From Bacteroidia bacterium (GTDB lineage: Bacteria > Bacteroidota > Bacteroidia > B-17B0 > Aurantibacillaceae): a stretch of 64,000 nt of DNA. The stretch lies in contig JBGATG010000007.1 of assembly GCA_044229315.1 (NCBI GenBank), positions 4,903 through 68,902 of the forward strand, written 5' to 3'. A program made the position numbers and the translations under genes. Under the pieces are notes generated by a model, which saw only the letters and a program-made list of their open reading frames with translations, did not search any database and had not been told where the DNA came from. Below, one piece after another: positions 1-13,730 of the stretch. Every line of letters starts with the position of its first letter. The first letter of the stretch is position 1.

Positions 1-980
1 ATCGTTAATGAGTGCTTGCCAGCATATATTATTTCTAAGCGACCCTTTAAGTCCCTTAGACCAGTGCCTGTGCCCTCCTTTATTGGTAATTGTTTCTTTT
101 CGTTTTCAATTTCAAATCTAATTGAATCGTTTCTACTCAAGTCAAATATAATATTAATGCTAGACTTTGCTTCGGGTTCAGTTCCGTGCTTAAAGGCATT
201 TTCAACCAAAGAAATAAAAATACCGGGCTCTACCAACTGGTTTTCATTATCGCCATATTGTTCGAAATTAACCTGTACTTCGTTATCAGCATATTTCAGT
301 TGATTTAATTCGATAAAACTTTTAATAAACTCTATTTCCTTGCTAATGGGAACCCTTTCATTCTTGGATTCTTCAATAACATATCGCAATAATTGCGATA
401 ACTTCTGTATGGTTAATGCCAGTTGTGGCGTTTGTTTTTGATCCACCATCGCCAATAAATTGTTTAAAGCATTAAACAAAAAGTGAGGTTGCAGCTGACT
501 TCTCAAAAGGGCCAATTCGGATTGCTTTTTCTCAAGAACAAGCATACTGTTAATCCTGTCATTTTGAATAACCATTCTAATCATAGCGTACATTAGAGTG
601 GCAATGTAGTAAAACAACGTGATCCCAAAACAAAGTACAACAGACACTTTACTTCTGCTTCCGATAGCGCTAAATATCATCCATTCCAGGCCAAAGGCTA
701 GTATAAATGAAATTAAGGTAAGAATAAAAAAACGAAACCTGTTTTGATCGAAAAGTGTTTTTCGCAAAAACAGAAAGCAAACCCAAAACAAAACTGCACA
801 AACGGCAATAATGATCATTAAAGCAGTTTGGACATCTTGATTTCGGGTAATTTTGACGCTTAATTTCCCATTTACTTCAACCTCATCAACGCCCGTTACC
901 GAAAAGCTTTGAACTATAAACCAACCAGTGACTAGCCAAAAGGCAGTCATTCCCAATATTTCAATTAGCCTTTTATTCAT
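1..980 (-). CDS. LytS/YehU-type membrane sensor histidine kinase, 3' end truncated by the window edge
   Basis: Missing from the ORF track because it has no stop in the window. Open from ATG at 980 (MNKRLIEILG...) to the edge. Hydrophobic N-terminal helices, then LLRSQLQPHFLFNALNN, LSQLLRY, LVENAFKHG and GTGTGLK motifs typical of His_kinase (PF06580)/HATPase. Confidence 0.88.
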   Translation of the reverse strand, partial: MNKRLIEILGMTAFWLVTGWFIVQSFSVTGVDEVEVNGKLSVKITRNQDVQTALMIIIAVCAVLFWVCFLFLRKTLFDQNRFRFFILTLISFILAFGLEWMIFSAIGSRSKVSVVLCFGITLFYYIATLMYAMIRMVIQNDRINSMLVLEKKQSELALLRSQLQPHFLFNALNNLLAMVDQKQTPQLALTIQKLSQLLRYVIEESKNERVPISKEIEFIKSFIELNQLKYADNEVQVNFEQYGDNENQLVEPGIFISLVENAFKHGTEPEAKSSINIIFDLSRNDSIRFEIENEKKQLPIKEGTGTGLRDLKGRLEIIYAGKHSLT

Positions 981-984
981 TACT

Positions 985-1051
985 CAAAGCTAGAATATTT
1001 ACATGTAATCTTCTCTTAAATTGGTATAAAACTGCTGAATTATGTTACAAA
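985..1051 (-). promoter_or_regulatory. Putative LytTR-type operator plus -7 box for the kinase gene
   Basis: Minus strand: TTTGTAACA (1051-1043), N12, TTTATACCA (1030-1022), then TAGCTTTG (992-985) matching the Bacteroidota TAnnTTTG element, 4 nt before the ATG. Confidence 0.7.
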
Positions 1052-1058
1052 ATGTGGA

Positions 1059-1123
1059 TTCATAACAAGAAACGGTGGGTTTGTAACATAAATCCTCTAA
1101 CAAGTCTGTTAAAGCTAATTTTG
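1059..1123 (+). promoter_or_regulatory. Putative LytTR-type operator plus -7 box for the first serine hydrolase
   Basis: TTCATAACA (1059-1067), N12, TTTGTAACA (1080-1088), then TAATTTTG (1116-1123). Confidence 0.7.
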
Positions 1124-1149
1124 ATTTACAAATAATTAAGATAGTAGAA

Positions 1150-2652
1150 ATGGTCAATCTAATAAAGTACATCATTTGCGATTTACAATATCAAATAAAA
1201 AAACTCATCTTAGGTATACTACTTTTATTTTCAGCTAATTTGGGACACTCTCAAGGTAAAGAAGCTCAAATTGATTCCATGTTGAGTTTATTTGTGGATC
1301 ACAAACACTTCAATGGTTCTATTCTTGTTGCAGAACATGGATCAGTTGTATATAAAAAAGGCTTTGGCTTCGCAAATATGGAATGGCAAATACCAAATAC
1401 AACGAATACCCGTTTTAAAATTGCTTCATTGGGCAAGCAGTTTACCGCGTTGATGATATTACAGCTTGTTCAGGAAGGAAAACTAGCACTTGAGGGTAAA
1501 ATATGTGATTACATACCGGAATACCCAAAAGAGAGCGGAAAAATAATCACCATTCACCAGTTGCTTACTCACACGTCAGGCATCCCAAACTATCATATTA
1601 TTCCAGATCAGGATGCAAATCAAAACCTTTCATATACACGTGAGGAATACATGGCCCTATTTAGTAGTAAGAAGCTAATGTTTAATCCAGGAACACACTA
1701 TTACTACTCCAACTTAGGGTATTATGTATTGGGATGCATATTGGAAAGGGTTAGTGGAAAATCATATATGCAATTAATAAAAGAAAAAATATTTGAACCT
1801 TCGGGGATGAATAACAGTTGTACCGAAGAAGAGAAATTGGTTATCCCAAATTTGGCTAGCGGTTACGAATTTATCTATTCCGGATATAAACCAGCCAGAC
1901 ATAGAAATTCTTCTCAAGTCTTCGGTGCAGGACATGTAATCACAACAGTGGAAGATTTTTTTAAGTATGACAAGGCATTACATAATAACATTTTACTATC
2001 TGATAAATACCAGAAACTAATAAATACACCTTTTATTAATAATTATGGCTACGGTTGGAATATTGAATATTATCCAAGGTCCAACATTGATTCAGTTACA
2101 TTAGCCAGTCACGATGGGGGCACATACGGATTTTCATCGGTAGCATATCGTTTTATTGAAGATAACAAGCTCATTGTGGCGCTCAGCAATACCTCTCCTT
2201 ATGACATGCACGGTATTGCAAGTTCAATCGGAAGAATCCTTTATGATCGAGAAAAAATATTCCCAAAGAAATCATACGTAGAAAGATTCGCCATTACCCT
2301 AAATGGCTTTGGTGTCGACTCGGCAATTAACCAGTATTATTATCTCAAAAAAAATGAGTCGGAACTATATGAATTGGACGGAGTGGAATTTAACCTTCTT
2401 GGCTATAATTATCTCAGGAACAAACAACTTAAGGAAGCCATGGCAGTCTTTAAAATTAATGTAGAAGCTTTTCCTAATGTTGGAGATCCCTACGACAGCT
2501 TAGCAGAAGCATATATGTTAATGAACGAAAAAGATTTAGCTATTTTGAACTATAATAAGGCCCTCAAACTTGATCCCAATAATTCTAACGCAAAAGTAAT
2601 GCTTAAGAAGCTTCAAGAGAAGGCACCGAAACCACCAACCAAGACCAATTGA
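1150..2652 (+). CDS. Serine hydrolase (AmpC/beta-lactamase-related family) with C-terminal TPR
   Basis: Signal-peptide-like N-terminus, SLGK (SxxK), LLTHTSG, YSN and HDGG motifs; C-terminal TPR (FPNVGDPYDSLAEAY...ALKLDPNN). Confidence 0.88.
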   Translation: MVNLIKYIICDLQYQIKKLILGILLLFSANLGHSQGKEAQIDSMLSLFVDHKHFNGSILVAEHGSVVYKKGFGFANMEWQIPNTTNTRFKIASLGKQFTALMILQLVQEGKLALEGKICDYIPEYPKESGKIITIHQLLTHTSGIPNYHIIPDQDANQNLSYTREEYMALFSSKKLMFNPGTHYYYSNLGYYVLGCILERVSGKSYMQLIKEKIFEPSGMNNSCTEEEKLVIPNLASGYEFIYSGYKPARHRNSSQVFGAGHVITTVEDFFKYDKALHNNILLSDKYQKLINTPFINNYGYGWNIEYYPRSNIDSVTLASHDGGTYGFSSVAYRFIEDNKLIVALSNTSPYDMHGIASSIGRILYDREKIFPKKSYVERFAITLNGFGVDSAINQYYYLKKNESELYELDGVEFNLLGYNYLRNKQLKEAMAVFKINVEAFPNVGDPYDSLAEAYMLMNEKDLAILNYNKALKLDPNNSNAKVMLKKLQEKAPKPPTKTN

Positions 2653-2717
2653 GGTTCAAATCTATCAAAAGTAGCGCCAAATAAATATATGCATTAAAGT
2701 CATATTAACAAGAAATT

Positions 2718-4162
2718 ATGAAGATCATTTTAGTTGCGCTCAATCTTTTATTAATTATTGCACATTCGTGTTCTCAGACATCTTCAGAGCAAAAGCAAGT
2801 ATTCTCTAAGGAAGAACTAAGACTAGACTTCAACATATTTCGTACGTCGTTAGAGGAGGGCCACCCTGCTTTGTACCATTACAAAACAAAGATAACGATG
2901 GATTCAATCTTCAACTCAAACATGGAGTCTATTAAAAGCGTAATGACTGATAGAGAATTTCTAATAATGCTAAGCAAGATTGTAAATCAGATCGGAGATG
3001 GACATTTGCGTGTTATTCTTCCCAAATTCCACAAGGATAAATTGGATATCGGCTCTACCGCTCTCCCGGTTTCACTGATTTACAGAAATAATAATTTATA
3101 TGTAGCTAGAAATCTATCACCTTACCCAGATAACGATTTGATAGGTGCACAAGTAGTTTCAATAAACGACAAAACTGTTTCTGAATTTCTTGTCAAATAT
3201 CTGGAGCTCTTTTCATCAGATGGCTCAAACGTTACTGCTAAATTTAAGCTCTATCGCGATTGCGAATAATTCCTAGATATTATAATATTCTTTATGGCTT
3301 TACGGAACAGTATAAGTTAACGTACATTCCATTTGGTGACGTTACCGCAAAGACCATTAATTTTAAAGGTATAACATACGATGAGTATTTTGAAGTGCTA
3401 TATAAGCGATATCCACCGCGCCCGGCATTGGAATTCATCCTGAAAAAGGATAGCAATTACGCTTATATGAAAATTAAGACCTTTGATAAAGATCAGTTAA
3501 AAGAAGAGAAGGCAAACTATGAGAAGTTTCTGCAAAATTCTTTCACTGCACTTCAAAAGAATAATATTGAAAATTTAGTACTTGATCTACGCGGAAATGG
3601 AGGTGGGACAGATGAATATGGCAAAATTCTCTTTTCCTATTTCACTGAGAAGCCATTTGAATATTACTCATCGATAACCATGAACAAAGAAAGTTTTGAT
3701 TTTTTCAAGTTCACAAGTAATCCCAACATTAAAGCACCAAACGGTATGTTAAAACCTAACACCCAAGGCACGTTTGATAATGTTAAACATCCAAATATTG
3801 GAAGGCAAAAACCTGGTGCACCTATTTTTAAAGGTAAAATTTACGTTCTTATCGACGGGGGTTGTTTTTCTACCACAAGTGAATTTTTATCTGTTCTTCA
3901 TTATAATACCCAGGCTATTTTCGTAGGCGAGGAAAGTGGCGGAGGATATTATGGCAATTGCTCTGGTCCAACGCCTGAGTTTGTTTTGCCTAATACGAAA
4001 GTCAGCGTGGCTATTCCTTTAATGAGATACAATATGGCAGTCGGCGGATACTTGCCGCATGACCGAGGAATAATACCAAACTACATAAAGGAATCCACAA
4101 TACTTGACATCATTGAAAATAACGATGTAGAGTTCAATTTTACAAAAAGTTTGATAAAATAA
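2718..4162 (+). pseudogene. S41-family peptidase (lipoprotein-like) split by a -1 frameshift near 3248-3268
   Basis: ORF 2718-3269 carries the S41 N-terminus (DFNIFRTSLEEGHPALY, GDGHL). ORF 3260-4162 carries LDLRGNGGG, GGCFST and VGEESGGG. They overlap by 10 bp in adjacent frames and join to about 480 aa. True pseudogene versus sequencing indel cannot be distinguished here. Confidence 0.75.
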
Positions 4163-4199
4163 ACTGAGCTAATCTATGATTCTTTTTAGATCCTGCCTG

Positions 4200-4265
4200 T
4201 TCATACCAATTCTATACGGTTTCATACCATTCTTCAGATCATCAGTTTTCTATATTTTAATTTTG
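4200..4265 (+). promoter_or_regulatory. Putative LytTR-type operator plus -7 box for the second transcription unit
   Basis: Perfect direct repeat TTCATACCA (4200-4208, 4221-4229) with a 12-bp spacer, then TAATTTTG (4258-4265) before the GTG at 4271. Confidence 0.72.
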
Positions 4266-4270
4266 CTTTA

Positions 4271-5395
4271 GTGAAATCTCAACTGGCATATTATATTATA
4301 CTACCAATGTACACTTTACTTTCCTGCCAGCAGGAAAGTAACAACAGTCATCAAGGGAAGTCGAATGAATCTGAGAATAAAATACTTGCATTTGTTGCTA
4401 GTCTTGATTCAACACTAAAGTCACATTATTTTAACGGAAGTGTACTCGTTCGAAAGGATGGCAAAACAATAATGAAGAGGAGTTATGGACTCTCAAATGT
4501 TGAGTTAAAAACACCTTTCACCGATTCCACATTTGCATGTATGGGTTCAATAACCAAGCACTTCACAACCATATTGGCCCTAAGATATCTGGATGAAGGA
4601 AAACTTAAATTAACAGACAGCTTAGGCAAGTATTTTCAAAATGTGCCTGATGACAAGAAAGGCATCACAATTCACCACTTGCTTTCTCATAGTTCCGGTT
4701 TGCCCGACTTTTTTGAGAATGATGGTGGAGATTACCTAAATATCGACAAACAAACCTTCCTTAAAAAATTACTCGGGGTAAGATTAAATTATGATCCGGG
4801 TGAAACAGCGGTCTACTCAAACATAGGTATGACGCTTATGGCCGCCATAATAGAAGAAGTATCCGGAGTTGAATTTGAGAGATGCATTACCAATGAACTT
4901 TTCAAGAACAACGGAATTGCGATCTCGTACAGCGATACCACATCGATGCAACAAATTGCTCAGGCATATAGAAACGGCAAACATTGGGGTACACTATTTG
5001 ATCAATACAAAATTAACTCGGGAGGACCGTTTTGGAATCTAATTGGAAATGGTGGCTTATATTGCTCAATTAACGAAATAGAGAAATGGTCAAACTTGAT
5101 TTGGCACAATAAAATTATTTCCCGAGAAACACTAAACTTGATGCATCAGCCAAAGGTAAGCGAACATGGCTCAAATAACGAATCATTCTTTGGTTATGGG
5201 TGTTTGATTGAACCAATTTCTTCGGGTGACACCATCATTAGCAATAATGGCAGTAATCAGGCTTATTACGCAACTTATAAGCGAATACCTACAAAGCAAA
5301 TAGAATTTTTCCTGATCACAAATCATTTCAGTAAGGGAATGATGGCAACTTATGAAGAACTGGCTTCAACTGCAGTAATGAGTTTAACAAAATGA
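4271..5395 (+). CDS. Serine hydrolase (beta-lactamase-related family), lipoprotein
   Basis: Lipobox-like LLSC, SITK (SxxK), LLSHSSG and YSN motifs. Confidence 0.87.
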   Translation: MKSQLAYYIILPMYTLLSCQQESNNSHQGKSNESENKILAFVASLDSTLKSHYFNGSVLVRKDGKTIMKRSYGLSNVELKTPFTDSTFACMGSITKHFTTILALRYLDEGKLKLTDSLGKYFQNVPDDKKGITIHHLLSHSSGLPDFFENDGGDYLNIDKQTFLKKLLGVRLNYDPGETAVYSNIGMTLMAAIIEEVSGVEFERCITNELFKNNGIAISYSDTTSMQQIAQAYRNGKHWGTLFDQYKINSGGPFWNLIGNGGLYCSINEIEKWSNLIWHNKIISRETLNLMHQPKVSEHGSNNESFFGYGCLIEPISSGDTIISNNGSNQAYYATYKRIPTKQIEFFLITNHFSKGMMATYEELASTAVMSLTK

Positions 5396-6810
5396 GATCT
5401 CATATCATTTTAATTTTGATACTAGTTGTTTTAAATCCGTTGAATTCCAGTGGTCAACTCGGCGATTCTATCAGCTCCAAAATTGACTCGTTACTTCATC
5501 AATTAGAAAAAGATGATGTCTTTTCGGGTAGTGTTCTTATTGGATATAATGGCTCCATCGTGTATTCAAAACATCTAGGGTATTCAACTAAAGAAAAACA
5601 CCTAAGGAATACTTCAAACACAAAATTTTACATCGGTTCGATTACAAAACTGTATACTAAAATTTTGATTTATCAACTCGTTGAAGAGAAAAAAATTAAG
5701 TTAAATGACAAGGTAGCTAAATACCTCAGCGGATTCAATAAAAACGTAGCTAATCATGTTACAGTGCAACACCTTCTAAATCATACCTCGGGCCTTGGTC
5801 AATACTACGATCATCCCGAATTTGAAAGCAGAAAAAAGAACATCTCATCAATAGATGACATTCTCTACTTTGTTAAAACGGAAGAGTTAATGTTTAAACC
5901 CGGTACTGAAGTAGAATATTCAAATTCGGGTTATGTTGTACTAGGTGCTATTATTGAAAAGGTGACCAATTTAACTTATGGAGAGGCTTTAAAGTCATAT
6001 ATCTTTCAAAAGATCGACGCTCGTAATTCATCGTATTCTATAATTAATACAGCAATGGATTCAACCGCCCAGGGTTACCTCACCAACCTATTAACAGGGG
6101 CTACAAATGCAGATCTTTTTCTCACCGGTGCTTCAGATGGTGGTATCATCACCACCGCTTACGACTTATTCAAACTCGACTCCGCCATCTTCCAAAGTGA
6201 TATTGTTCTAAATGAGAAAAGTAGGCTTCAGATTTTTAACCAGCGGGGAAACAATGAGCTAATTGCAACTTCTAAAAATGTGAAATTTGCAATTGCCGGA
6301 GGCGATCCAGGTTTAAGCACAATATACTCACGCAATATAGTGAAAGGATATACAATCATTGTGTTAAGCAACTATGATGAACCCGTTTCCGCTGAGGTTC
6401 TAAGGTCAGTCGTTAATATACTAAACGGAAATGCCCCTTCCAAGGTCATAGGTTCCATTGCTCGCCATTTAAGGAAATACATGAACGAACACGGAGGTGC
6501 AAGTTTTAAAACCTATTTGGATCAGAATATAGATGATCAACTCGTTGCGTTAAGGCAAAATGATATGCCTTTACTCTACTTAGGGAAATACCTAATCGAA
6601 AATGAAAGGCTATTTGATGCGCAATGTTTGTACGAAATATACACGAAGCACTTTCCAAAAATTGTTATTGCTTGGGAAGAACTGGCTTTGGTGTATACGC
6701 AACTCAACAAAACAAGTGATGCTAACTTCATTTATTTAAAACTTCAGGAACGTTTTCCTGAAAACGAAGAATACCGTCAAAATATAATAAAACCAAAAAC
6801 CAAAAATTAA
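5392..6810 (+). CDS. Serine hydrolase (beta-lactamase-related family) with C-terminal TPR-like region
   Basis: ATGA overlap with the previous gene, signal peptide, SITK, LLNHTSG, YSN; helical TPR-like tail. Confidence 0.87.
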   Translation: MRSHIILILILVVLNPLNSSGQLGDSISSKIDSLLHQLEKDDVFSGSVLIGYNGSIVYSKHLGYSTKEKHLRNTSNTKFYIGSITKLYTKILIYQLVEEKKIKLNDKVAKYLSGFNKNVANHVTVQHLLNHTSGLGQYYDHPEFESRKKNISSIDDILYFVKTEELMFKPGTEVEYSNSGYVVLGAIIEKVTNLTYGEALKSYIFQKIDARNSSYSIINTAMDSTAQGYLTNLLTGATNADLFLTGASDGGIITTAYDLFKLDSAIFQSDIVLNEKSRLQIFNQRGNNELIATSKNVKFAIAGGDPGLSTIYSRNIVKGYTIIVLSNYDEPVSAEVLRSVVNILNGNAPSKVIGSIARHLRKYMNEHGGASFKTYLDQNIDDQLVALRQNDMPLLYLGKYLIENERLFDAQCLYEIYTKHFPKIVIAWEELALVYTQLNKTSDANFIYLKLQERFPENEEYRQNIIKPKTKN

Positions 6811-6834
6811 ACCAAAAATTAAACCAAAAATTAT
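6792..6834 (+). repeat. 12-bp tandem repeat ACCAAAAATTAA x3 plus a partial copy
   Basis: Copies at 6799-6810, 6811-6822 and 6823-6834 (the last ends AT, the start of the next ATG); partial ACCAAAA at 6792-6798. Confidence 0.85.
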
Positions 6835-7264
6835 GAAAACAAAATTCATTAAAAGTCTTATTCTAGCACTGCTAGTTTTCAATTCGAACTCAATTTTTAG
6901 TCAAACTAAGTTCGTTACTCAAGAGGCGAATTTCATTTATGACTATGTTAAGTCAAAAGGTTCGGCCACTTTTGATAAAGAATTTGAGAAAACCTTTAAA
7001 GAAAAAGGCTTTGTTATTGATGATGACATGATATTCATTAACGTAGCAGAGGCTTTAAAAGAGGAGAAACTTGCTAATGAAGCAATTTCGGTATTTAAGG
7101 TTGGCACTAAGCATTTCCCTAAGATTATCATGTTGTGGAACGGCCTTGGCGAAGCTTATCTCATAAATCAAAATAAAAAGGACGCTAAGATATGCTTTGA
7201 AAAAGTACTTAAACTTAAACCGGGTAACCCCCGTGCACAAGAAGGGTTGAAAAAATGCGAGTAA
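6833..7264 (+). CDS. Exported tetratricopeptide-repeat protein
   Basis: Signal peptide followed by TPR (LWNGLGEAY...FEKVLKLKPGNPRA). Confidence 0.8.
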   Translation: MKTKFIKSLILALLVFNSNSIFSQTKFVTQEANFIYDYVKSKGSATFDKEFEKTFKEKGFVIDDDMIFINVAEALKEEKLANEAISVFKVGTKHFPKIIMLWNGLGEAYLINQNKKDAKICFEKVLKLKPGNPRAQEGLKKCE

Positions 7265-7326
7265 GCGTTCGATTATTTATTACGGCGATTATTTTTAGTT
7301 CTAAAGTAATTCACAGAGTAGTAAGA

Positions 7327-9498
7327 ATGAGTTTGTCGCTTGGACTTTGTTTGATATATTTATTAGCCTCCTGCAATTCTAATTCAAACGACAAAGATTC
7401 ACTATGCAGTAGCGGCAATCCTGGTGATCTTATGTTAAATTCAACTACACCTTCTGGATTAGTTTTTGAAACATTTTATCTGAAGCTCAGTACTGGCATA
7501 TTATGCACTTTGCTTTTTAGTTCAATAACATTAGTTCTCAAAGAAAATGCTTGGAAAAAGTTGCTTGCATTACCAATTTACGGGGCTTCAATGTTCGCTA
7601 ATTTATTCGTAAACAATACGCCAATTAACTCCTTCGGCAATATAGGCAAGTTTCATTATGAACTACCAAAAACTGAATGGAGGAAGGATTTAGAATATTT
7701 AAAAGTAGAGTTGCCTAAGCATCATCCTAATCTTTTTATGTATATGGAGAAGGATGAATTTTTGAGTGCAATTCAGCACCTGGAGGAAAGATTAAGCTTA
7801 CTTGATGATCAGCAAATAACTTTTGAAATATGTCGAATTGTATCTATGATCAAAGATGGCCACACGCAAATTGTATCAATACCGTTTGGAACTCCTCCTT
7901 TTGTCAACAGTCAATTATATCCGTTACGAGTATACTTCTTTGCAGATGGATTGTATGTGATAGATGGTGGACGAGATCATAAGGACTTGGTAGGGAAGAG
8001 AATCGATAAAATTGACAAAACACCAATCAAAGAGGTTGTAGAACGAATTAGTCAGTATGCACCTGGCGAAAACTCTTTCTACAAGATGCAATGGTCTTTC
8101 CCATACCTACTCAATGCCTCTTTGCTAGAGCATTTAAAAATTGCTAACAGTGTTAACGAGATTCAACTTACTTTAAGCGACGTATCAGGAGTTCAAGTAT
8201 CAAAAACTTTAAAGCCTTTTCATTCCACTCTTTATCTTAAATGGTATGAAGAAACAAAGGACTTGGATGATTTGTCAAGAAAAGGCAAACTAGAGAAAAA
8301 CTATTGGTATAAATATAATGAAGCAACCAACGATCTATACTTTCAGATCAATCAGGTTAAAGATCAACCTGGCGAAAAATCTATAAAGGAATTCGCATCG
8401 GAACTTACACAAATTATTAAAGAACGCGAAATTAATAAGCTAATTATCGATGCAAGAAATTGTAATGGTGGAGACAATACTTTAGTACACTACTTAATTG
8501 ATGCTATATCCGCCTCTGAAAAAGTAAATAAGTATGGTAAATTGTTTACCCTAATTGGAAGAAATACATTTTCAGGCGGCGTCTCATTTGTTTCCGCAAT
8601 TGAAAGAAATACTCCAGTGATCTTTGTTGGAGAACCTTCAGGAAGCGGGCCAAATCAATGTGGAGATGTTCAAACATTTACATTGCCGCATTCTCAACTT
8701 CGTTTAAAAGTATCTTCCAAATTTCATCAGCAGAGCCACTATAAAGACAATAGATTACAAATCACTCCCCATATCCGGGTAAATTACGACTACAATTCTT
8801 GGAAGAATAACATTGATCCTGCTATACTGACTGTCCTGTCATTCACCGACCAAATTCAAAAGCGTGACACTTTAAAGCTACCTTTTTACAAACCATATCT
8901 TGGTACATATAACTTTGATACGGAAAAGATCTTAAAAATTAGCAGTAGTAATTCTAGATTAGTATTTACAATTAGCGATTATCAAGTTTTCTCAAACGGT
9001 GATCTCTTCAGTTTAGGAACTGATTCTTTTATTGGTAACAACGGAAGTGTTAAGTTGAGATTCACTAATTGCAAAGATAGTTTCTTTCAGAGTATAATTA
9101 TCAATTATGGTAATGCGGTTGACACACTTCATAGACTACCAACTGACTTCCAATTACCATATCAATTATTGGCGCTGGCGAGGTTAAATGAAGTTTCTAA
9201 GATTTATCGCAAAGCAATTTCATATGGTATTACATTGCCTGCTTCAACTGAAGAACTAATAAATTATTACGCGTACAAATTTATGGTGGATAAAAATATC
9301 GATAGAGCTATGCTTCTATTCAGACTTAATACTGAACTCTTTCCTTTCTCGGCAAATGCTTGGGACAGGCTAGCCGAAGCCTGTCTAACAAACGGCCTTA
9401 AGGAGGAAGCAAAACTAAATTACCAGAAGGCATTGAGCATTGATCCGGATTATGGTAAAGCTATGCATGCGAAGTCAATAATTGAAAAAATAAAATAG
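7327..9498 (+). CDS. S41-family peptidase with N-terminal hydrophobic segments and C-terminal TPR
   Basis: WRKDLEYLKVELPKHHPNLF, IKDGHT, IIDARNCNGGD, GRNTFSG and VGEPSGS motifs; TPR tail. Start moved from 7255 to the ATG at 7327 (LLASC lipobox-like); start uncertain. Confidence 0.82.
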   Translation: MSLSLGLCLIYLLASCNSNSNDKDSLCSSGNPGDLMLNSTTPSGLVFETFYLKLSTGILCTLLFSSITLVLKENAWKKLLALPIYGASMFANLFVNNTPINSFGNIGKFHYELPKTEWRKDLEYLKVELPKHHPNLFMYMEKDEFLSAIQHLEERLSLLDDQQITFEICRIVSMIKDGHTQIVSIPFGTPPFVNSQLYPLRVYFFADGLYVIDGGRDHKDLVGKRIDKIDKTPIKEVVERISQYAPGENSFYKMQWSFPYLLNASLLEHLKIANSVNEIQLTLSDVSGVQVSKTLKPFHSTLYLKWYEETKDLDDLSRKGKLEKNYWYKYNEATNDLYFQINQVKDQPGEKSIKEFASELTQIIKEREINKLIIDARNCNGGDNTLVHYLIDAISASEKVNKYGKLFTLIGRNTFSGGVSFVSAIERNTPVIFVGEPSGSGPNQCGDVQTFTLPHSQLRLKVSSKFHQQSHYKDNRLQITPHIRVNYDYNSWKNNIDPAILTVLSFTDQIQKRDTLKLPFYKPYLGTYNFDTEKILKISSSNSRLVFTISDYQVFSNGDLFSLGTDSFIGNNGSVKLRFTNCKDSFFQSIIINYGNAVDTLHRLPTDFQLPYQLLALARLNEVSKIYRKAISYGITLPASTEELINYYAYKFMVDKNIDRAMLLFRLNTELFPFSANAWDRLAEACLTNGLKEEAKLNYQKALSIDPDYGKAMHAKSIIEKIK

Positions 9499-9551
9499 TT
9501 CGATAATTAAATTAGAGATCTGAATCCATAATACTTTAAAAGAAATAAACT

Positions 9552-10754
9552 ATGAAATACACAAAAACAATCTTGGTAGGTGCATTTTTACTCTTTGTAA
9601 AGCTCATCAATGCACAATGGATAACCCAGACTAGCGGCACAACCGAAACCCTTTTGGGCATTTCTGGTGTCAGCCCATACAATGCTTATGCTGTCGGAAC
9701 AAACGGCACGATTAAGCACACCAACAACGCCGGTACAACTTGGGTCAGTCAAGCCAGTGGGACAACAAGTTTTTTAAGAGATATATTCTTCTCTGATTCG
9801 CTCAATGGGTGCGTTGTTGGCCAAATGGGTTTAGTATTAACTACAACCAATACGGGAACAACATGGTCGAATAATGCAAGCGGAACAATTGAACACCTTG
9901 TGCATGTTCATTTTGCAAATTCCTCTATCGGTATGGCAGGTGGTCAGAACGGTGTACTCATAAAAACCAATAATTCTGGCGTAAACTGGTCTACAATGAC
10001 AAGTGGCGTTAGTGTTGAGCTTGCGGGAATTTACATGTGCAACAGCAATATAGCCTATGCTGTTGGATTCAATGGAACAATATTGAAAACAATAAATGGT
10101 GGTATTACCTGGACACCACAAACAAGTGGTACCTCCAACGATTTAAGAAGCGTGGCATTTGTTGGATTAGATACTGGTGTTGTGGTGGGCATTAATGGTA
10201 CAATTCTCAGAACAACGGATGGTGGAACAAATTGGCAAACCTTAACAAGTGGCGTGTCATCAAATCTTTATGGAATTGAGATGATTAGCACTTTCACTAA
10301 TAATGCAGCCGGTACCGGAAAAATACTTAGAAGTATCAATAGCGGAACAACATGGCCGCAACAAGCCATTGGTACTTATACAAATGATCTGTACGATATT
10401 GATTTTGTCAATAATACTGTTGGTTGGGCTGTTGGTCAAATTGGTAAGATATTTTATACGAGTAATGGAGGAATTGCAACTCGTATTAACGATGAAGAGG
10501 CTATGGATAATATCCTTAAGGTTTATCCTAATCCCACCGGTGGGATTGTTTATATAGTCGAAGAAAAGGAATGTTTGCCAACTTCTTATGAAGTGACCGA
10601 TTGCACAGGTACACTATTCTATAAAGGGACACTTCTTGCAGATCAGCATTGCATAGATATCTGTTCAATACCTCAAGGAATATATTTACTAAAAGTTCTT
10701 TATAAGTATAGGCCCCCAAGAACCTGTAAGGTGATAGTTCAACAGAAAGATTGA
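9552..10754 (+). CDS. YCF48/BNR-like beta-propeller protein with T9SS C-terminal sorting domain
   Basis: Repeated VG.NGTILKT.NGG.TW..QTSG units; C-terminal VYPNP...GIYLLKV. Confidence 0.85.
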   Translation: MKYTKTILVGAFLLFVKLINAQWITQTSGTTETLLGISGVSPYNAYAVGTNGTIKHTNNAGTTWVSQASGTTSFLRDIFFSDSLNGCVVGQMGLVLTTTNTGTTWSNNASGTIEHLVHVHFANSSIGMAGGQNGVLIKTNNSGVNWSTMTSGVSVELAGIYMCNSNIAYAVGFNGTILKTINGGITWTPQTSGTSNDLRSVAFVGLDTGVVVGINGTILRTTDGGTNWQTLTSGVSSNLYGIEMISTFTNNAAGTGKILRSINSGTTWPQQAIGTYTNDLYDIDFVNNTVGWAVGQIGKIFYTSNGGIATRINDEEAMDNILKVYPNPTGGIVYIVEEKECLPTSYEVTDCTGTLFYKGTLLADQHCIDICSIPQGIYLLKVLYKYRPPRTCKVIVQQKD

Positions 10755-10978
10755 TACAACCCAATAATTATAGCTTTTTTTGAATAAAGTTTTGAACTTT
10801 ATTGGAATTCCTTAGATTTTAAGCCTCGCTACCGCCCAGGCATACCTGGCAAAGTCTTCCAAGGCTAATAGGTCTTTCTCGAGTCGGTTCAGGATTGCCA
10901 TTCTTTGTGCTATATTTGTGTCTGAGGGGCACAAAGATCGGGTAAATGTCGTCGCAAATGATGATATTTTGCCTACCA

Positions 10979-11006
10979 AAAAAACCTCAGGATACTGGGG
11001 TTTTTT
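10979..11006. terminator. Bidirectional intrinsic-terminator-like hairpin
   Basis: AAAAAACCTCAG-GATA-CTGGGGTTTTTT. Confidence 0.65.
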
Positions 11007-11012
11007 CATTTC

Positions 11013-11288
11013 ATGGAATTTGTTGTCTACATAATGTATTCAAATAGTAGTAAGCGTAATTATACTGGTTACACGTCTAATCTGATAGAGCGATTTCGTT
11101 CACATAATATTTACGGAAAAGATAGTACAAGACTTTACAGACCTTGGACAGTAGTGCATGTTGAATTTTTTCGAACCAAAGAAGAGGCGATGAAACGAGA
11201 AAAGTACTTTAAGGCCGGGCGTGGATCAATTTTGAAGAATTCAATTGTCTCTGAATTCATGGCTCGTTGGGCTCATACCCTTCCCTAA
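11013..11288 (+). CDS. Small stand-alone GIY-YIG nuclease family protein
   Basis: VYIMYS...YTGYT...RFRSHN...EAMKREK (GIY-YIG, Arg and Glu motifs). The C-terminal ARWAHT is translated tRNA sequence. Confidence 0.85.
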   Translation: MEFVVYIMYSNSSKRNYTGYTSNLIERFRSHNIYGKDSTRLYRPWTVVHVEFFRTKEEAMKREKYFKAGRGSILKNSIVSEFMARWAHTLP

Positions 11289-11326
11289 AGGGAAGGGCGG
11301 AAGTTCGAATCTTCCTCCCGCTACCA
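11262..11326 (+). pseudogene. 3' fragment of tRNA-fMet (CAT) with an inserted hairpin
   Basis: GCTCGTTGGG-CTCATA-CCC (GGG/CCC initiator anticodon stem), insert TTCCCTAAAGGGAA, perfect T-arm GGAAG-TTCGAAT-CTTCC, acceptor 3' strand TCCCGCT-A-CCA. No D-arm or 5' acceptor strand upstream. Confidence 0.8.
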
Positions 11327-11354
11327 AAAAAACCACCTGAAATGGTGGTTTTTT
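11327..11354 (+). terminator. Intrinsic terminator after the tRNA fragment
   Basis: AAAAAACCACC-TGAAAT-GGTGGTTTTTT. Confidence 0.7.
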
Positions 11355-11468
11355 ATTTTGTTTTCGGTCATCTACTCATTCCTACTAAACACTCGCTCAG
11401 TTCCCCGGAATTAAATTTGGTTTGGATACGTCGTAAAAAGTACTTTCATACACGTAAAACTTTATGTT

Positions 11469-13682
11469 ATGAAATTATCCTCTTCTTCGATCTCAAAAAT
11501 AACGTTGGCACTCTGTTTGATCCTCGCCGGTTTTACCGCGAAGGCCCAAGTGACAAAAACATTCACGATCATTCCATTTGCAGATACAAACAATAACTGC
11601 GTTTATGATTTTGGTGAAGACACGCTTGTGAGTTTCAAGATACAAGCGGTAGATCCCATGAATTTTTATGGAACCGCCGGAGTAACAAATGCAAATGGAA
11701 GACTAGCTCTTTCATTACCGGTTCCTGCCGCAAGTAATAGTTATTCAATCGCGCTGCTATCCGGGCTTATAGAACCTTGTGCGGTTTCTGCAGCAACAGC
11801 CGTTCCATACTATTCATTATATTATCTGCCTATCAAACCTGTGATCCTAAATGCGCCGGTAGGTTATGGAAGTACTTTTTTTTGGGGACAAACTGCACAA
11901 GGCAAACTTTTCAAATATGCCCCAATGGACACGCTAAGGAATTGTAGCGCTCCTCTTTATTCCGGAAACTTCAATTGTTTTTTTGAGTTACATAACAATG
12001 TGAATTCAATGCCGGGGTTTTATACCGGTACAATGACAGTTAAATTGGATGCGGCAACGGTTGATACTTACTCTTTCGGTTTTGTCAACACATCAACCTC
12101 ATTCACTTCGGCAAGTTCAACAGGCACGATATTGTCAAATCAAAATGATCAAGCTCTAATGGTCATGTATAATTTGCCGAATACTCTGGTAACCGCGGGT
12201 ATCCACACATTGTCGGTGATCTTTACACCATTTACAGGATATTCACAAAATTCAGTAATGAATATAATATTGAGCGCTGATAGTTGCGGAAGCATAAATG
12301 GTCAAGCGTACATGGACTGTAATAATAACTGCGCGTTTGATGCCTGGGAAACCTATGGAGGCAACAACATTAGCGCCGTGGTTGTTACGAATGCCACAAA
12401 TACGCTTTCCTGTTATCCGAGCGCAAATGGTTCTTATAATTTAAGCGCGCCGGTTGGAATTTATACGGTTACTGCAGTTGGAACAAATAGCAGCTATTCA
12501 GTTTGCCCGGTTACTTCATTCACAACAAATATTTCTTATCTTTCTTCTTACACCTTGAATTATGGTGTACAAGAACTTAATCCAAATTCGGTTGATTACA
12601 AAACATTCTTAAACATGAGCGGAGCAAATCCTGGTCCGGGTGCTGTGCCGGGTGGAACCTTGGCGATCAATGCATACAACATTAAAACCGGTGGTCCATT
12701 ATGTACAGTGAATCCAACTTTAGTTCCAACTGCTTTAAAAATCGTGTTGCCAATTGAAATGACCTATTCATATGTTATCGGTACAACGCCGCTTCCTTCG
12801 TCGGTTATTCCATGCGCAACAGGGGATACTATTGTTTGGAATTATCCGGGGGCAAACGCCTTGCATCAAATTGGAGTGTTCACTGCAACTAACGCTACTA
12901 TTGGAAATTCTTATTGCATTAAAAGCATTGTGAATCCACAAAACGATAATGACCCAAGCAATAACATTTATACACGATGTACCACATTTGGTGGACCTTT
13001 TGATCCAAACGAGAAAACTGCGGAGGCGCTGAACATGTTCCCTAACGGAAATATCTTGCCGGGCACACAGGATATTACTTACACTATTGAATTCCAAAAT
13101 TTGGGCAACGGTCAAGCTGTGAATATAAATATCAACGATACTATTAGTTCTTATTTGGATCTTTCTTCACTACAGGTGATCTCGTCAAGTTTCCCGGTTC
13201 AAACAATTGTGAATGCCGGTACCAGAGTTGTTGATTTTAAATTCAAAGGAATTAATTTACCTGCTTCAAGTGTTAACGAGCCTGCCAGTCATGGCTACGT
13301 GAGATATAAGCTCAACTTAAATCCAAGTTTACCTTTGGGCACAAGTATTAAGAACAGAGCGCACATCTATTTTGATTATAATTCAGCGGTGTCAACTAAC
13401 CAAACTATAAATACAATAGCTTTAACTACCGGCATCAATCAAAATGCATTAAATAGCATGGTGATCATGTATCCTAACCCTACAAAAGATAATGTGAATA
13501 TTAATTCTTCAGTTATTATTTCGAGAATTGAGGTGATGAATTTAGTAGGCCAGGTGATCACGGCGAAAGATGTAAATTCCTTTAATACGAATATTGATCT
13601 TAGCATGTTGAATAAAGGAGTGTATTTGGTTCAGATGCATACAGCATCCGGCCCGATCATTAAAAAACTGGTAAAAGAGTAG
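11469..13682 (+). CDS. T9SS-secreted surface protein with DUF7619/DUF11-like domain
   Basis: Signal peptide; PFDPNEK...YTIEFQNLG...HGYVRYK...RAHIYFDYN; C-terminal MYPNP...GVYLVQ...IKKLVKE sorting domain. Confidence 0.85.
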   Translation: MKLSSSSISKITLALCLILAGFTAKAQVTKTFTIIPFADTNNNCVYDFGEDTLVSFKIQAVDPMNFYGTAGVTNANGRLALSLPVPAASNSYSIALLSGLIEPCAVSAATAVPYYSLYYLPIKPVILNAPVGYGSTFFWGQTAQGKLFKYAPMDTLRNCSAPLYSGNFNCFFELHNNVNSMPGFYTGTMTVKLDAATVDTYSFGFVNTSTSFTSASSTGTILSNQNDQALMVMYNLPNTLVTAGIHTLSVIFTPFTGYSQNSVMNIILSADSCGSINGQAYMDCNNNCAFDAWETYGGNNISAVVVTNATNTLSCYPSANGSYNLSAPVGIYTVTAVGTNSSYSVCPVTSFTTNISYLSSYTLNYGVQELNPNSVDYKTFLNMSGANPGPGAVPGGTLAINAYNIKTGGPLCTVNPTLVPTALKIVLPIEMTYSYVIGTTPLPSSVIPCATGDTIVWNYPGANALHQIGVFTATNATIGNSYCIKSIVNPQNDNDPSNNIYTRCTTFGGPFDPNEKTAEALNMFPNGNILPGTQDITYTIEFQNLGNGQAVNININDTISSYLDLSSLQVISSSFPVQTIVNAGTRVVDFKFKGINLPASSVNEPASHGYVRYKLNLNPSLPLGTSIKNRAHIYFDYNSAVSTNQTINTIALTTGINQNALNSMVIMYPNPTKDNVNINSSVIISRIEVMNLVGQVITAKDVNSFNTNIDLSMLNKGVYLVQMHTASGPIIKKLVKE

Positions 13683-13700
13683 TAATTAGGTTTGAAAATG

Positions 13701-13730
13701 AAGACCCCGCTTCGGCGGGGTTTTTTGTTT
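13701..13730 (+). terminator. Intrinsic terminator
   Basis: ACCCCGC-TTCG-GCGGGGT followed by a T-tract, between convergent genes. Confidence 0.85.

What the first reader, a model, noticed from the sequence alone, without database searches (positions are those of the whole stretch)
1..9498. Sensor-controlled battery of five exported peptidase-fold enzymes: candidate peptide sensing and destruction system
Seen: three SxxK/YSN serine hydrolases, two S41 peptidases and a TPR protein, all with signal or lipoprotein leaders, lie divergent from a multi-TM kinase lacking a large soluble sensor domain. Established: the AmpC-fold family includes D-stereospecific peptidases, and the S41 family includes the nisin-resistance protease. 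Inference: an inducible envelope module that detects and cleaves antimicrobial, D-amino-acid-containing or signalling peptides, with TPR tails for substrate capture or assembly. The substrate cannot be read from sequence.
Basis: partly seen in the sequence, partly recalled or inferred. Interest (0 to 1): 0.72.

Follow-up and report, generated by a model that had tools for sequence, protein, structure and literature searches.

The report
Kinase-controlled exported peptidase gene cluster
A membrane sensor kinase and its LytTR DNA-binding partner appear to switch on a neighbouring set of exported peptide-cutting enzymes through a readable DNA operator; the kinase-enzyme-operator core recurs in bacteria of at least three phyla and I found no paper describing it, but what the enzymes cut is still unknown.

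Summary
Three PF00144 (S12-type, SxxK/YSN) hydrolases, two S41 peptidases and a TPR protein, all with export leaders, lie divergent from a 4-TM PF06580 kinase. Three corrections apply: one S41 gene is split by a 1-nt frameshift, the LytTR regulator lies just outside the window, and the cluster runs on to 10754.

Sensor control now has direct sequence support. TTYRTAMCA-N12-TTYRTAMCA occurs three times in the 4.0-Mb genome, all in this cluster. The sites lie upstream of the kinase, of bla1 and of bla2, each 27-29 nt before a TAnnTTTG -7 box.

All 9 loci with a kinase of this subfamily (37-65% identity; Bacteroidota, Ignavibacteria, Calditrichota) have a PF00144 gene next to the kinase-LytTR pair. 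It is usually about 472 aa with a TPR tail, and 7 of the 9 loci carry the same operator. Among generic PF06580 kinase loci, 6 of 80 have a PF00144 neighbour and none has the operator.

One metagenomic contig carries the orthologous battery between an integrase and RteC. Here the cluster is low-GC and absent from congeners.

The enzymes resemble D-stereospecific and DD-peptidases, not class C beta-lactamases. The signal and substrate are unknown. The verdict is an autoregulated, horizontally mobile LytTR regulon of exported peptidases, a new variant of a known kind.

The parts
3..980 (-). Sensor histidine kinase, LytS/YehU type. The window holds its N-terminal 326 aa; the full gene is 342 aa at G000:C2:4854-5882. 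Its LytTR response regulator (223 aa) follows at C2:4186-4857, just outside the window.
   Evidence: PF06580, 78.9 bits. The regulator has PF00072 + PF04397. Four hydrophobic segments and a 25-aa loop. The loop and TM1 are conserved in 120 homologues.
985..992 (-). -7 promoter box TAGCTTTG of the kinase operon. The start codon follows 4 nt after it, so the mRNA is probably leaderless or nearly so.
   Evidence: Read. The same spacing is seen in 6 homologous loci.
1022..1051 (-). Operator 1, TTTGTAACA-N12-TTTATACCA, upstream of the kinase gene. It implies autoregulation.
   Evidence: One of only three exact matches to TTYRTAMCA-N12-TTYRTAMCA in the 4.0-Mb genome. It lies 29 nt upstream of the -7 box.
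1059..1088 (+). Operator 2, TTCATAACA-N12-TTTGTAACA, upstream of bla1. The -7 box TAATTTTG is at 1116-1123.
   Evidence: It lies 27 nt upstream of the -7 box.
1150..2652 (+). bla1: exported S12/PF00144 serine hydrolase (SLGK, YSN, HDG) with a C-terminal TPR tail.
   Evidence: Pfam 196.8 bits plus TPR. PDB sequence hits are Pab87 at 2.8e-37, alkaline D-peptidase at 5.9e-31 and dHy1 at 1.3e-29. It scores 69 bits against the class C beta-lactamase model, whose cut-off is 415.
2718..4162 (+). S41a: S41 peptidase gene split into two ORFs (2718-3269 and 3260-4162) by a 1-nt frameshift near 3250. No separate operator precedes it, so it is probably co-transcribed with bla1.
   Evidence: Pfam S41, 67.9 bits. 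tblastn against the intact 523-aa orthologue of L034 matches at 64% and 69% identity in two frames that abut at residues 210/211.
4200..4229 (+). Operator 3, a perfect TTCATACCA-N12-TTCATACCA, upstream of bla2. The -7 box TAATTTTG is at 4258-4265.
   Evidence: The exact repeat is unique in the genome. It lies 28 nt upstream of the -7 box. The orthologous site in L034 is TTCATACCA-N12-TTCGTACCA.
4271..5395 (+). bla2: lipoprotein-type PF00144 serine hydrolase (SITK, YSN) without a TPR tail.
   Evidence: Pfam 150.7 bits. 69% identical to the L034 orthologue.
5392..6810 (+). bla3: exported PF00144 serine hydrolase with a TPR-like tail. It belongs to the ~472-aa family that partners this kinase subfamily. 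Its start overlaps the bla2 stop.
   Evidence: Pfam 166.2 bits. Alignment with partner proteins shows invariant Ser83, Tyr176 and Ser177. AF2 model pLDDT is 92.9. Top Foldseek hits are 3tg9, Pab87, FmtA, dHy1, R61, ClbP and DltE.
6833..7264 (+). Small exported TPR protein (143 aa). Its repeats resemble the tails of bla1, bla3 and S41b.
   Evidence: Pfam TPR. 86% identical to the L034 orthologue. A small TPR gene also follows a PF00144-TPR gene in L042.
7255..9498 (+). S41b: S41 peptidase of the tricorn/CPAF-like type, with a beta-sandwich domain, a C-terminal TPR tail and an N-terminal lipobox or hydrophobic helices.
   Evidence: Pfam S41, 31.3 bits. His203, Ser440 and Glu460 are invariant in 53 homologues. 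AF2 pLDDT is 88.3. Foldseek hits are 4ghn, CPAF, CtpA-LbcA and Prc-NlpI.
9552..10754 (+). Ycf48/BNR-like beta-propeller protein with a type IX secretion sorting tail. It is probably the last gene of the operon.
   Evidence: Pfam PSII_BNR + Por_Secre_tail. 60% identical to the equivalent gene in the orthologous L034 cluster.

Best explanation
This is an autoregulated LytTR two-component regulon, probably acquired horizontally. Its only targets in this genome are its own operon and two operons of exported peptidases.

**Proposed mechanism**
1. The 4-TM kinase senses an envelope-associated cue. It has no large sensor domain, only conserved membrane helices and a conserved 25-aa outer loop.
2. The kinase phosphorylates the LytTR regulator.
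3. The regulator binds pairs of 9-bp direct repeats 21 bp apart (TTYRTAMCA-N12-TTYRTAMCA). The repeats lie just upstream of the -7 box, where a -33 element would otherwise sit.
4. Binding activates three promoters: P(kinase-regulator), P(bla1-S41a) and P(bla2-bla3-TPR-S41b-BNR).

**Output**
- The conserved core output is a TPR-tailed S12-family serine hydrolase of the D-stereospecific or DD-peptidase type.
- Here, and in one orthologue, that core has been enlarged into a battery with further S12 paralogues, S41 peptidases and a TPR adaptor-like protein.
- The battery most likely hydrolyses peptides containing D-amino acids or resembling cell-wall peptides, outside the cytoplasm, on demand.

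**Status of each step**
- Shown: gene content, catalytic motifs, the operator and its conservation, the synteny.
- Inferred: activation rather than repression, the signal, the substrate.
For: **Operator in this genome**
- There are exactly three matches in 4.0 Mb, all at this cluster's promoters.
- Allowing one mismatch adds only one further hit, inside a gene.

**Independent validation of the operator in other loci**
- With at most one mismatch there are 10 hits, in 7 of the 9 module loci. Every hit lies in a kinase/partner promoter region.
- There are no hits in 94 kb of loci that hold enzyme homologues without the kinase.
- There are no hits in 590 kb of generic PF06580 kinase loci.
- Spacing to the TAnnTTTG box is 27-29 nt in 11 of the 15 promoters printed (one of those rows was cut out of register). 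The kinase start codon lies 39-41 nt after the operator in 7 loci.
- The decayed congener locus G029 keeps the same architecture.

**Synteny**
- 9 of 9 kinase-subfamily loci have an adjacent PF00144 gene, against 6 of 80 controls. Fisher p = 8e-9.
- The orthologous cluster L034 has the order S41, bla, bla-TPR, TPR, peptidase, BNR, at 60-86% identity.

**Enzyme class**
-.

**Accessory or mobile nature**
- L034 is flanked by an integrase, RteC and HTH_17.
- The cluster is 34.4-35.5% GC against 39.2% for the genome.
- Only 1 of 36 congeners has a copy, and it is decayed. Only 1 of 400 sampled genomes of the phylum has a match.

**Established knowledge**
- LytTR regulators such as AgrA and ComE bind 9-bp direct repeats separated by 12 bp and autoregulate.
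Against: - There are no expression, binding or enzyme data.
- The direction of regulation, activation or repression, is inferred only from the operator's position.
- The operator consensus was drawn from these same three sites. Its genome-wide uniqueness is therefore partly circular, and only the cross-locus test is independent.
- S41a is frameshifted here. In the congener G029 the kinase and regulator are decayed. The system may be partly non-functional.
- The third active-site motif is not conserved (HDG, NNG, AGG), so the chemistry could be esterase-like.
- Many PF00144-TPR genes occur without this kinase.
- The partner in Aquimarina pacifica lacks the catalytic Lys and the YSN motif. This suggests catalysis is not always the point.
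Confidence: 0.62

Rival explanations
1. Dedicated defence. The module senses membrane-active or cell-wall-active peptide antibiotics, such as lipopeptides, D-amino-acid-containing non-ribosomal peptides or beta-lactam-like compounds, and destroys them outside the cell.
For: - The structural and sequence neighbours are D-stereospecific peptidases.
- D-stereospecific peptidases of this fold are known to inactivate non-ribosomal peptide antibiotics (papers listed, e.g. PMC9541196 and PMC12516957).
- The kinase has no ligand-binding domain, as in intramembrane-sensing kinases.
- No uptake transporter lies in any of the loci.
- The distribution is patchy and one copy is mobile-element-borne.
- A LytTR regulator and its kinase acquired parallel mutations in Flavobacterium johnsoniae co-evolved with an antibiotic producer (PMC10197871). 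Orthology to this system is untested.
Against: - No substrate is known.
- The scores lie far below every curated resistance model.
- The orthology of the F. johnsoniae system is untested.
- S41 proteases with TPR adaptors normally act on proteins, not on small antibiotics.
Confidence: 0.25
2. Envelope or peptidoglycan remodelling response. The regulon answers cell-wall stress. DD-peptidase-like S12 enzymes trim stem peptides, and S41 + TPR proteases degrade wall hydrolases, as Prc-NlpI and CtpA-LbcA do.
For: - The S41b model matches CtpA-LbcA and Prc-NlpI complexes among others, and S41b has a fused TPR tail with a separate TPR protein encoded next to it.
- NCBIfam partial hits include AmpH and PBP4B.
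- R61 DD-peptidase is among the fold neighbours.
- The arrangement parallels divergent ampR-ampC and two-component control of AmpC in other bacteria (established knowledge).
Against: - A wall-maintenance function would be expected to be conserved within a lineage. This module is absent from 35 of 36 congeners and rare across the phylum.
- It sits on a mobile element at least once.
- The S41 proteins lack the Ser/Lys dyad of Prc and CtpA and look tricorn/CPAF-like.
Confidence: 0.2
3. Nutrient scavenging. This would be an inducible secreted peptidase set for feeding on peptides, including cell-wall peptides from dead or prey bacteria.
For: - Several peptidase classes are combined: S12, S41, and S15/S9 in L034.
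- One product is secreted by the type IX system.
- M1, M28, S9 and DUF885 genes lie near some loci.
Against: - None of the operons contains a SusC/SusD-type or other transporter.
- In most loci the core is a single enzyme.
- Bacteroidota nutrient loci normally use other regulator types.
Confidence: 0.15
4. Chance neighbours. The kinase-regulator pair is unrelated to the hydrolase genes, which are constitutive housekeeping esterases or processing proteases.
For: - This genome has about 15 LytS-type kinases, so some chance adjacency is expected.
- Close homologues of S41b and bla1 occur without any kinase.
Against: - The shared operator lies at all three promoters and nowhere else.
- The pairing is conserved in 9 of 9 loci across phyla, against 6 of 80 controls.
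Confidence: 0.03

Closest known systems
LytTR two-component systems with direct-repeat operators (AgrCA, ComDE, BlpRH, PlnBCD)
   Same: - The response regulator has a LytTR DNA-binding domain.
- The operator consists of two 9-bp direct repeats separated by 12 bp, next to the promoter.
- The regulator's own operon carries the operator, giving positive autoregulation.
   Different: - The kinase belongs to PF06580 (LytS/YehU type), not the HPK10 peptide-pheromone receptor type.
- None of the 9 loci has a pheromone precursor, AgrB or an ABC exporter.
- The targets are exported hydrolases.
LytSR / BtsSR / YpdAB (PF06580 kinase + LytTR regulator)
   Same: The kinase catalytic family and the regulator family are the same. 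The regulator gives a partial match to BtsR: 100.6 bits against a cut-off of 246.
   Different: - These kinases have a 5TM-Lyt sensor and a GAF domain, and they control holin-like or transporter genes.
- The kinase here has only four helices and a short conserved loop, and the target is a PF00144 enzyme.
ampR-ampC and two-component control of AmpC-type enzymes (BlrAB, CreBC)
   Same: A regulator gene is divergently transcribed from an inducible PF00144-fold enzyme gene.
   Different: - The regulator is a LytTR two-component system, not LysR or OmpR type.
- The enzymes are not class C beta-lactamases: they score 62-74 bits against a cut-off of 415 and have no KTG motif.
- They carry TPR tails.
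S12 D-stereospecific peptidases and DD-peptidases (Pab87/CubicO, Bacillus alkaline D-peptidase, dHy1, R61, ClbP, FmtA, DltE)
   Same: They share the fold and the SxxK and YxN motifs, and they are the best sequence and structure matches. Sources label the family 'CubicO group peptidase'.
   Different: - Identity is only 20-28%.
- The third motif is variable.
- The tail is TPR rather than lipocalin or transmembrane.
- Stereospecificity is untested.
Prc-NlpI and CtpA-LbcA (S41 protease with TPR adaptor)
   Same: An S41 fold is combined with TPR repeats in the envelope.
   Different: - Here the TPR is fused to the protease and also encoded separately.
- The catalytic set is Ser/His/Glu-like, as in tricorn and CPAF, with no conserved Lys.
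- No PDZ domain was detected by Pfam.
Three-component systems with a divergently encoded secreted accessory protein (HbpS-SenS-SenR); BlaR1/MecR1 acyl-enzyme sensors
   Same: - A secreted protein gene is divergent from, or in L112 lies inside, the operon of a kinase that lacks a sensor domain.
- The PF00144 fold can form acyl-enzymes with ligands, as BlaR1 does.
   Different: There is no evidence of interaction. Most partners keep a full catalytic set.

Membership tests
PF06580-type histidine kinase + LytTR response regulator | His_kinase (PF06580) domain with the conserved His box; regulator with receiver + LytTR domains | tested here: met
   PF06580 at 78.8 bits (cut-off 25.2). PF00072 at 77.1 bits and PF04397 at 59.9 bits. 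The QPHFLFN box is invariant in 46 homologues.
LytTR operator architecture | Two 9-bp direct repeats separated by 12 bp, adjacent to the promoter, and also upstream of the regulator's own operon | tested here: met
   Three sites in the genome, all here. The sites are conserved in 7 of the 9 homologous loci. Binding itself was not tested.
Agr/Com-type peptide quorum sensing | Pheromone precursor gene and a processing or export gene in the locus; HPK10 kinase | tested here: not met
   The only conserved neighbour in 9 loci is PF00144. No ABC exporter or AgrB was found, and the kinase is PF06580.
MEROPS S12 / Pfam PF00144 serine hydrolases | Pfam score above the gathering cut-off; SxxK nucleophile motif; YxN motif | tested here: met
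   Scores of 196.8, 150.7 and 166.2 bits against a cut-off of 27. Motifs are SLGK/SITK/SITK and YSN in all three.
MEROPS S12 / Pfam PF00144 serine hydrolases | Third motif (K/H)-(T/S)-G | tested here: inconclusive
   The aligned position reads HDG (bla1), NNG (bla2) and AGG (bla3). It varies among the partner proteins.
Class C beta-lactamase | NCBIfam bla_class_C equivalog score of at least 415 bits; KTG motif | tested here: not met
   Scores of 69, 61.6 and 74 bits. No KTG motif. AmpC structures rank below the D-peptidases.
D-stereospecific peptidase activity | Cleavage next to D-amino acids | not testable with these tools
   Only homology to Pab87, ADP, dHy1, ClbP and Lip3 is available.
Peptidase family S41 | Pfam PF03572 above the cut-off; conserved nucleophile Ser | tested here: met
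   S41a scores 67.9 bits and S41b 31.3 bits (cut-off 24). The Ser aligns with the nucleophile region of 4ghn. S440 is invariant in 53 homologues. The fold matches 4ghn, CPAF and CtpA.
Prc/CtpA-type C-terminal processing peptidase (S41A) | Ser/Lys dyad, PDZ domain, TIGR00225 score of at least 218.6 bits | tested here: not met
   TIGR00225 scores 34.9 bits. At the usual Lys position the motif is GE(E/P)SG with no Lys. Pfam finds no PDZ domain.
Bacteroidota polysaccharide/nutrient utilisation locus | SusC/SusD-like transporter pair in the operon | tested here: not met
   No such pair lies in the window cluster or in the operons of 8 homologous loci.

The most novel reading that the evidence does not exclude
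The TPR-tailed PF00144 protein may be more than an output of the system. It could be its extracytoplasmic receptor: a penicillin-binding-type protein that captures a D-Ala-D-Ala-like, beta-lactam-like or peptide ligand as an acyl-enzyme or complex. It would then signal through its TPR tail to the conserved outer loop of a kinase that has no sensor domain of its own. That would be a split, BlaR1-like three-component system spread across the Bacteroidota, Ignavibacteria and Calditrichota.

Hints:
- The pairing is obligate (9 of 9 loci).
- In one metagenomic variant the PF00144 gene sits between the kinase and regulator genes (L112).
- In two cases the partner has lost the catalytic Lys and the YSN motif yet stays paired: Aquimarina pacifica and the paralogous locus on contig C7.
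- The same TPR tail is attached to unrelated catalytic domains in this cluster.
Probability: 0.2. Interest if true: 0.8.

Novelty: new variant of a known kind. Interest (0 to 1): 0.6.

Why it matters
LytS-type kinase and LytTR regulator pairs are among the most numerous signalling systems in Bacteroidota, with about 15 in this genome. Almost none has a known target or signal.

This subfamily now has three things that can be read directly from sequence:
- an operator;
- a complete predicted regulon;
- a partner enzyme conserved across three phyla.

That makes it directly testable. Reporter fusions to a 30-bp operator could be used to screen for the inducing signal.

If the enzymes prove to degrade peptide antibiotics or beta-lactam-like compounds, this would be an inducible and at least occasionally mobile resistance module in environmental bacteria. 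If the PF00144-TPR protein is a co-sensor, it would be a new way of coupling a penicillin-binding fold to two-component signalling.

Tried and rejected
**Tried, with little or no yield**
2. Synteny starting from S41b. Its closest homologues (43-46% identity) are stand-alone genes without a kinase or PF00144 neighbour.
3. Synteny starting from bla1. The genome-collection scan gave only 4 loci. Three are Ignavibacteria or Bacteroidetes MAGs with tandem PF00144 genes and no kinase.
4. Metagenome scan with a kinase alignment. The patterns chosen were generic to PF06580, so the 80 loci are mostly non-orthologous. I used them as a control set.
5. Phylum-wide genome search. Only 5 candidates per genome were scored, so the 1 in 400 frequency is a lower bound.
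6. Plasmid collection. No kinase homologue at 1e-40.
7. Terminator scan. Nothing convincing inside the cluster.
8. Literature. Six searches found no description of this module.

**Readings rejected**
- Class C beta-lactamase.
- Agr-like quorum sensing, because there are no pheromone or export genes.
- A nutrient locus of the Sus type, because there is no transporter.
- Chance adjacency.

**Other checks**
- The fourth near-match to the operator, at C1:1567976, lies inside a gene on the opposite strand and is taken as chance.
- An island boundary at a tRNA was not supported. ARAGORN finds no tRNA in 9000-14000.

Full report
**What is there**

The window is G000:C2:4903-68902 of a 4.0-Mb, 7-contig Bacteroidota genome. 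ObgE cluster-mates are labelled 'Bacteroidota bacterium' or 'Sphingobacteriaceae bacterium' MAGs.

On the minus strand at 3..980 lies a PF06580 histidine kinase. The full gene is 342 aa. It is followed, outside the window, by a 223-aa receiver + LytTR regulator. The kinase has four hydrophobic segments and one loop of about 25 aa, with no soluble sensor domain. TM1 and that loop are conserved across 120 homologues.

Divergent from the kinase, on the plus strand, lie these genes:

| Gene | Coordinates | Description |
|---|---|---|
| bla1 | 1150-2652 | PF00144 + TPR |
| S41a | 2718-4162 | S41 peptidase, split |
| bla2 | 4271-5395 | PF00144, lipobox |
| bla3 | 5392-6810 | PF00144 + TPR-like tail |
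| TPR | 6833-7264 | 143-aa TPR protein |
| S41b | 7255-9498 | S41 + beta-sandwich + TPR |
| BNR | 9552-10754 | Ycf48/BNR-like protein with a type IX secretion tail |

All of the products begin with a signal peptide, a lipobox or hydrophobic helices, as read.

- The three PF00144 proteins keep SxxK and YSN.
- S41a is interrupted by a 1-nt frameshift near 3250 relative to an intact 523-aa orthologue. The reads needed to verify this could not be reached.
- The genome has only 6 PF00144-like and 3 S41-like genes, so the clustering is not chance.

**The regulatory link**

I tested it.

- TTYRTAMCA-N12-TTYRTAMCA has exactly three matches in the genome and none at other spacings. They are 1022-1051(-) before the kinase, 1059-1088(+) before bla1 and 4200-4229(+) before bla2.
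- The bla2 site is a perfect TTCATACCA repeat that is unique in the genome.
- Allowing one mismatch adds a single intragenic hit.
- Each site lies 27-29 nt upstream of a Bacteroidota-type -7 box (TAnnTTTG). The kinase start codon follows 41 nt after its operator.

The consensus was drawn from these three sites, so the independent test is in other genomes (below).

No operator precedes S41a, bla3, the TPR gene, S41b or the BNR gene. Their gaps or overlaps are short and no terminator was found. I therefore infer three transcription units: kinase-regulator, bla1-S41a, and bla2-bla3-TPR-S41b-BNR.

**Conservation**

Homologues of the kinase at about 40% identity over the full length are numerous in metagenomes and occur in several phyla.

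I looked at nine loci of this subfamily:
- Seven were fetched by exact protein look-up.
- One came from a phylum-wide genome search.
- One is a congener, G029.

All nine have a PF00144 gene next to the kinase-LytTR pair. It is divergently transcribed, about 200 bp away in most, and usually 472-474 aa with a TPR tail. The carriers are Aquimarina pacifica, Ekhidna, a Saprospiraceae MAG, a Melioribacteraceae MAG (Ignavibacteria), a Calditrichota MAG and unnamed metagenome or genome contigs.

As a control I used 80 generic PF06580 kinase loci from metagenomes. Six have a PF00144 ORF within the flanks, which gives Fisher p = 8e-9. Some of those six are themselves related pairings. One has the PF00144 gene between the kinase and regulator genes (L112).

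The operator, allowing at most one mismatch, gives these counts:

| Sequence set | Size | Hits |
|---|---|---|
| Module loci (9 loci) | about 124 kb | 10, in 7 loci, all in kinase/partner promoter regions |
| Loci with homologues of S41b or bla1 but no kinase | 94 kb | 0 |
| Generic PF06580 kinase control loci | 590 kb | 0 |

Operator-to-box spacing and operator-to-start spacing are conserved across phyla. In G029 the kinase is frameshifted and the regulator is truncated, yet phased half-sites remain on both sides.

**The orthologous battery and mobility**

A Logan contig (L034) carries a kinase 65% identical to this one. Its gene order is:

integrase | regulator, kinase <> S41 (intact), bla (374 aa), bla-TPR (471 aa), TPR (134 aa), S15/S9-type hydrolase, BNR-T9SS, ankyrin, RteC, HTH_17.

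- Its proteins are 60-86% identical to those here.
- The internal operator before the 374-aa bla gene is conserved.
- Compared with L034, this genome has an extra bla1 next to the kinase, and it has S41b where L034 has an alpha/beta-hydrolase peptidase.
- The integrase, RteC and excisionase-like genes place L034 on a Bacteroidota integrative element.

In this genome the cluster is 34.4-35.5% GC against 39.2% overall. Of 36 congeners, 35 lack the cluster and one holds a decayed remnant. Only 1 of 400 sampled genomes of the phylum has a match, and that is a lower bound because of the scoring cap.

The reverse implication fails. PF00144-TPR genes are a large family labelled 'serine hydrolase' or 'CubicO group peptidase', and many lack the kinase. 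Close homologues of S41b are stand-alone genes.

**What the enzymes look like**

- bla1, bla2 and bla3 score far below every curated NCBIfam model. For class C beta-lactamase they reach 62-74 bits against a cut-off of 415.
- The best solved relatives of bla1 by sequence are Pab87 (the CubicO octameric D-specific protease), a Bacillus halodurans PBP, alkaline D-peptidase, dHy1, Flp, LACTB, R61, FmtA and ClbP.
- An AlphaFold model of bla3 (pLDDT 92.9) gives the same neighbours by fold, and AmpC ranks lower.
- The third active-site motif is variable.
- S41b (model pLDDT 88.3) matches a Bacteroides putative protease (4ghn), CPAF, D1-processing protease, CtpA-LbcA, Prc-NlpI and tricorn.
- The S41b family keeps invariant His203, Ser440 and Glu460 and has no Lys at the dyad position. 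It is therefore tricorn/CPAF-like rather than Prc-like.
- The TPR tails of bla1, bla3 and S41b and the separate TPR protein resemble one another.

**Interpretation**

The regulatory design is well supported. The system is a LytTR two-component system with positive feedback, and its whole predicted regulon is this cluster.

The output is a set of exported serine peptidases. The conserved member is a TPR-tailed S12 enzyme of the D-stereospecific or DD-peptidase type.

Several features argue for an episodic, accessory function directed at an external or envelope peptide substrate:
- the distribution is patchy, one copy is mobile-element-borne and the local GC is low;
- gene decay is visible (S41a here, the kinase and regulator in G029);
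- there is no uptake transporter;
- the autoregulated design keeps the system off until it is induced.

I cannot separate three readings:
- processing of cell-wall peptides or envelope remodelling, for which S41 + TPR has the Prc-NlpI and CtpA-LbcA precedents;
- scavenging of peptides as nutrients.

A more novel possibility is that the PF00144-TPR protein is the receptor of the system. The evidence is the L112 operon, the catalytically degenerate partners in Aquimarina pacifica and in the paralogous C7 locus, and the obligate pairing.

**Literature**

Six full-text searches found no description of this module. One paper reports parallel mutations in a LytTR regulator and its kinase in Flavobacterium johnsoniae co-evolved with Burkholderia thailandensis, with reduced antibiotic susceptibility (PMC10197871). 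Whether that pair belongs to this subfamily could not be tested.

**Verdict**

- This is a new variant of a known kind, a two-component-controlled hydrolase operon.
- Its value lies in giving a large orphan class of Bacteroidota signalling systems a readable operator, a defined regulon and a conserved partner.

Noticed in passing
G000:C2:1042-2815 (upstream of the window): A second PF06580-type kinase (362 aa) and LytTR regulator (239 aa) lie 1.4 kb beyond the regulator of this cluster, followed by an SRPBCC/polyketide-cyclase-like gene. This stretch is also low in GC (34.7%).
   Followed up: partly
G000:C7:127519-134561: A paralogous locus carries, on one strand: a 153-aa exported protein; a 364-aa PF00144 protein that lacks the SxxK lysine and the YSN motif; a 1195-aa lipoprotein whose C-terminal region aligns by eye with that of a 1271-aa protein encoded near the congener module (L023 8304-12119; neither was profile-scanned); and the closest paralogue of the kinase-regulator pair.
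   Followed up: partly
L112 (metagenome contig QQTW01010495.1) 1532-5367: A variant architecture in which a 514-aa PF00144 gene sits between a 514-aa PF06580 kinase gene and the LytTR regulator gene, all on one strand.
   Followed up: partly
L035 6410-7801 (Aquimarina pacifica JACC01000039.1): The PF00144 partner of the kinase in this species has SRSI instead of SxxK and HSH instead of YSN. It also has a ~100-aa N-terminal extension and no TPR tail. It may be a non-catalytic member.
   Followed up: no
L023 (G029:C25) 1996-3310: In the only congener with a related module, the kinase N-terminus is in a different frame from the rest, and the regulator ORF stops after the receiver domain (96 aa). 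The two-component system is decayed while the PF00144 gene and the operator remain.
   Followed up: partly
window 11013-11288: A small GIY-YIG nuclease ORF (91 aa; Pfam 56.3 bits) lies just beyond the cluster.
   Followed up: partly
window 11469-13682 and 9552-10754: Two genes with type IX secretion sorting tails (DUF7619 and the Ycf48/BNR-like protein) flank the GIY-YIG region. The BNR gene belongs to the cluster. The DUF7619 gene has normal GC and probably does not.
   Followed up: no
L042 (GCA_038229375.1 JBBRON010000018.1) 2826-7851: A kinase-free locus reads PF00144, amidohydrolase, PF00144-TPR and a 144-aa TPR protein. The pairing of a PF00144-TPR gene with a small TPR gene therefore recurs independently of the two-component system.
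   Followed up: no
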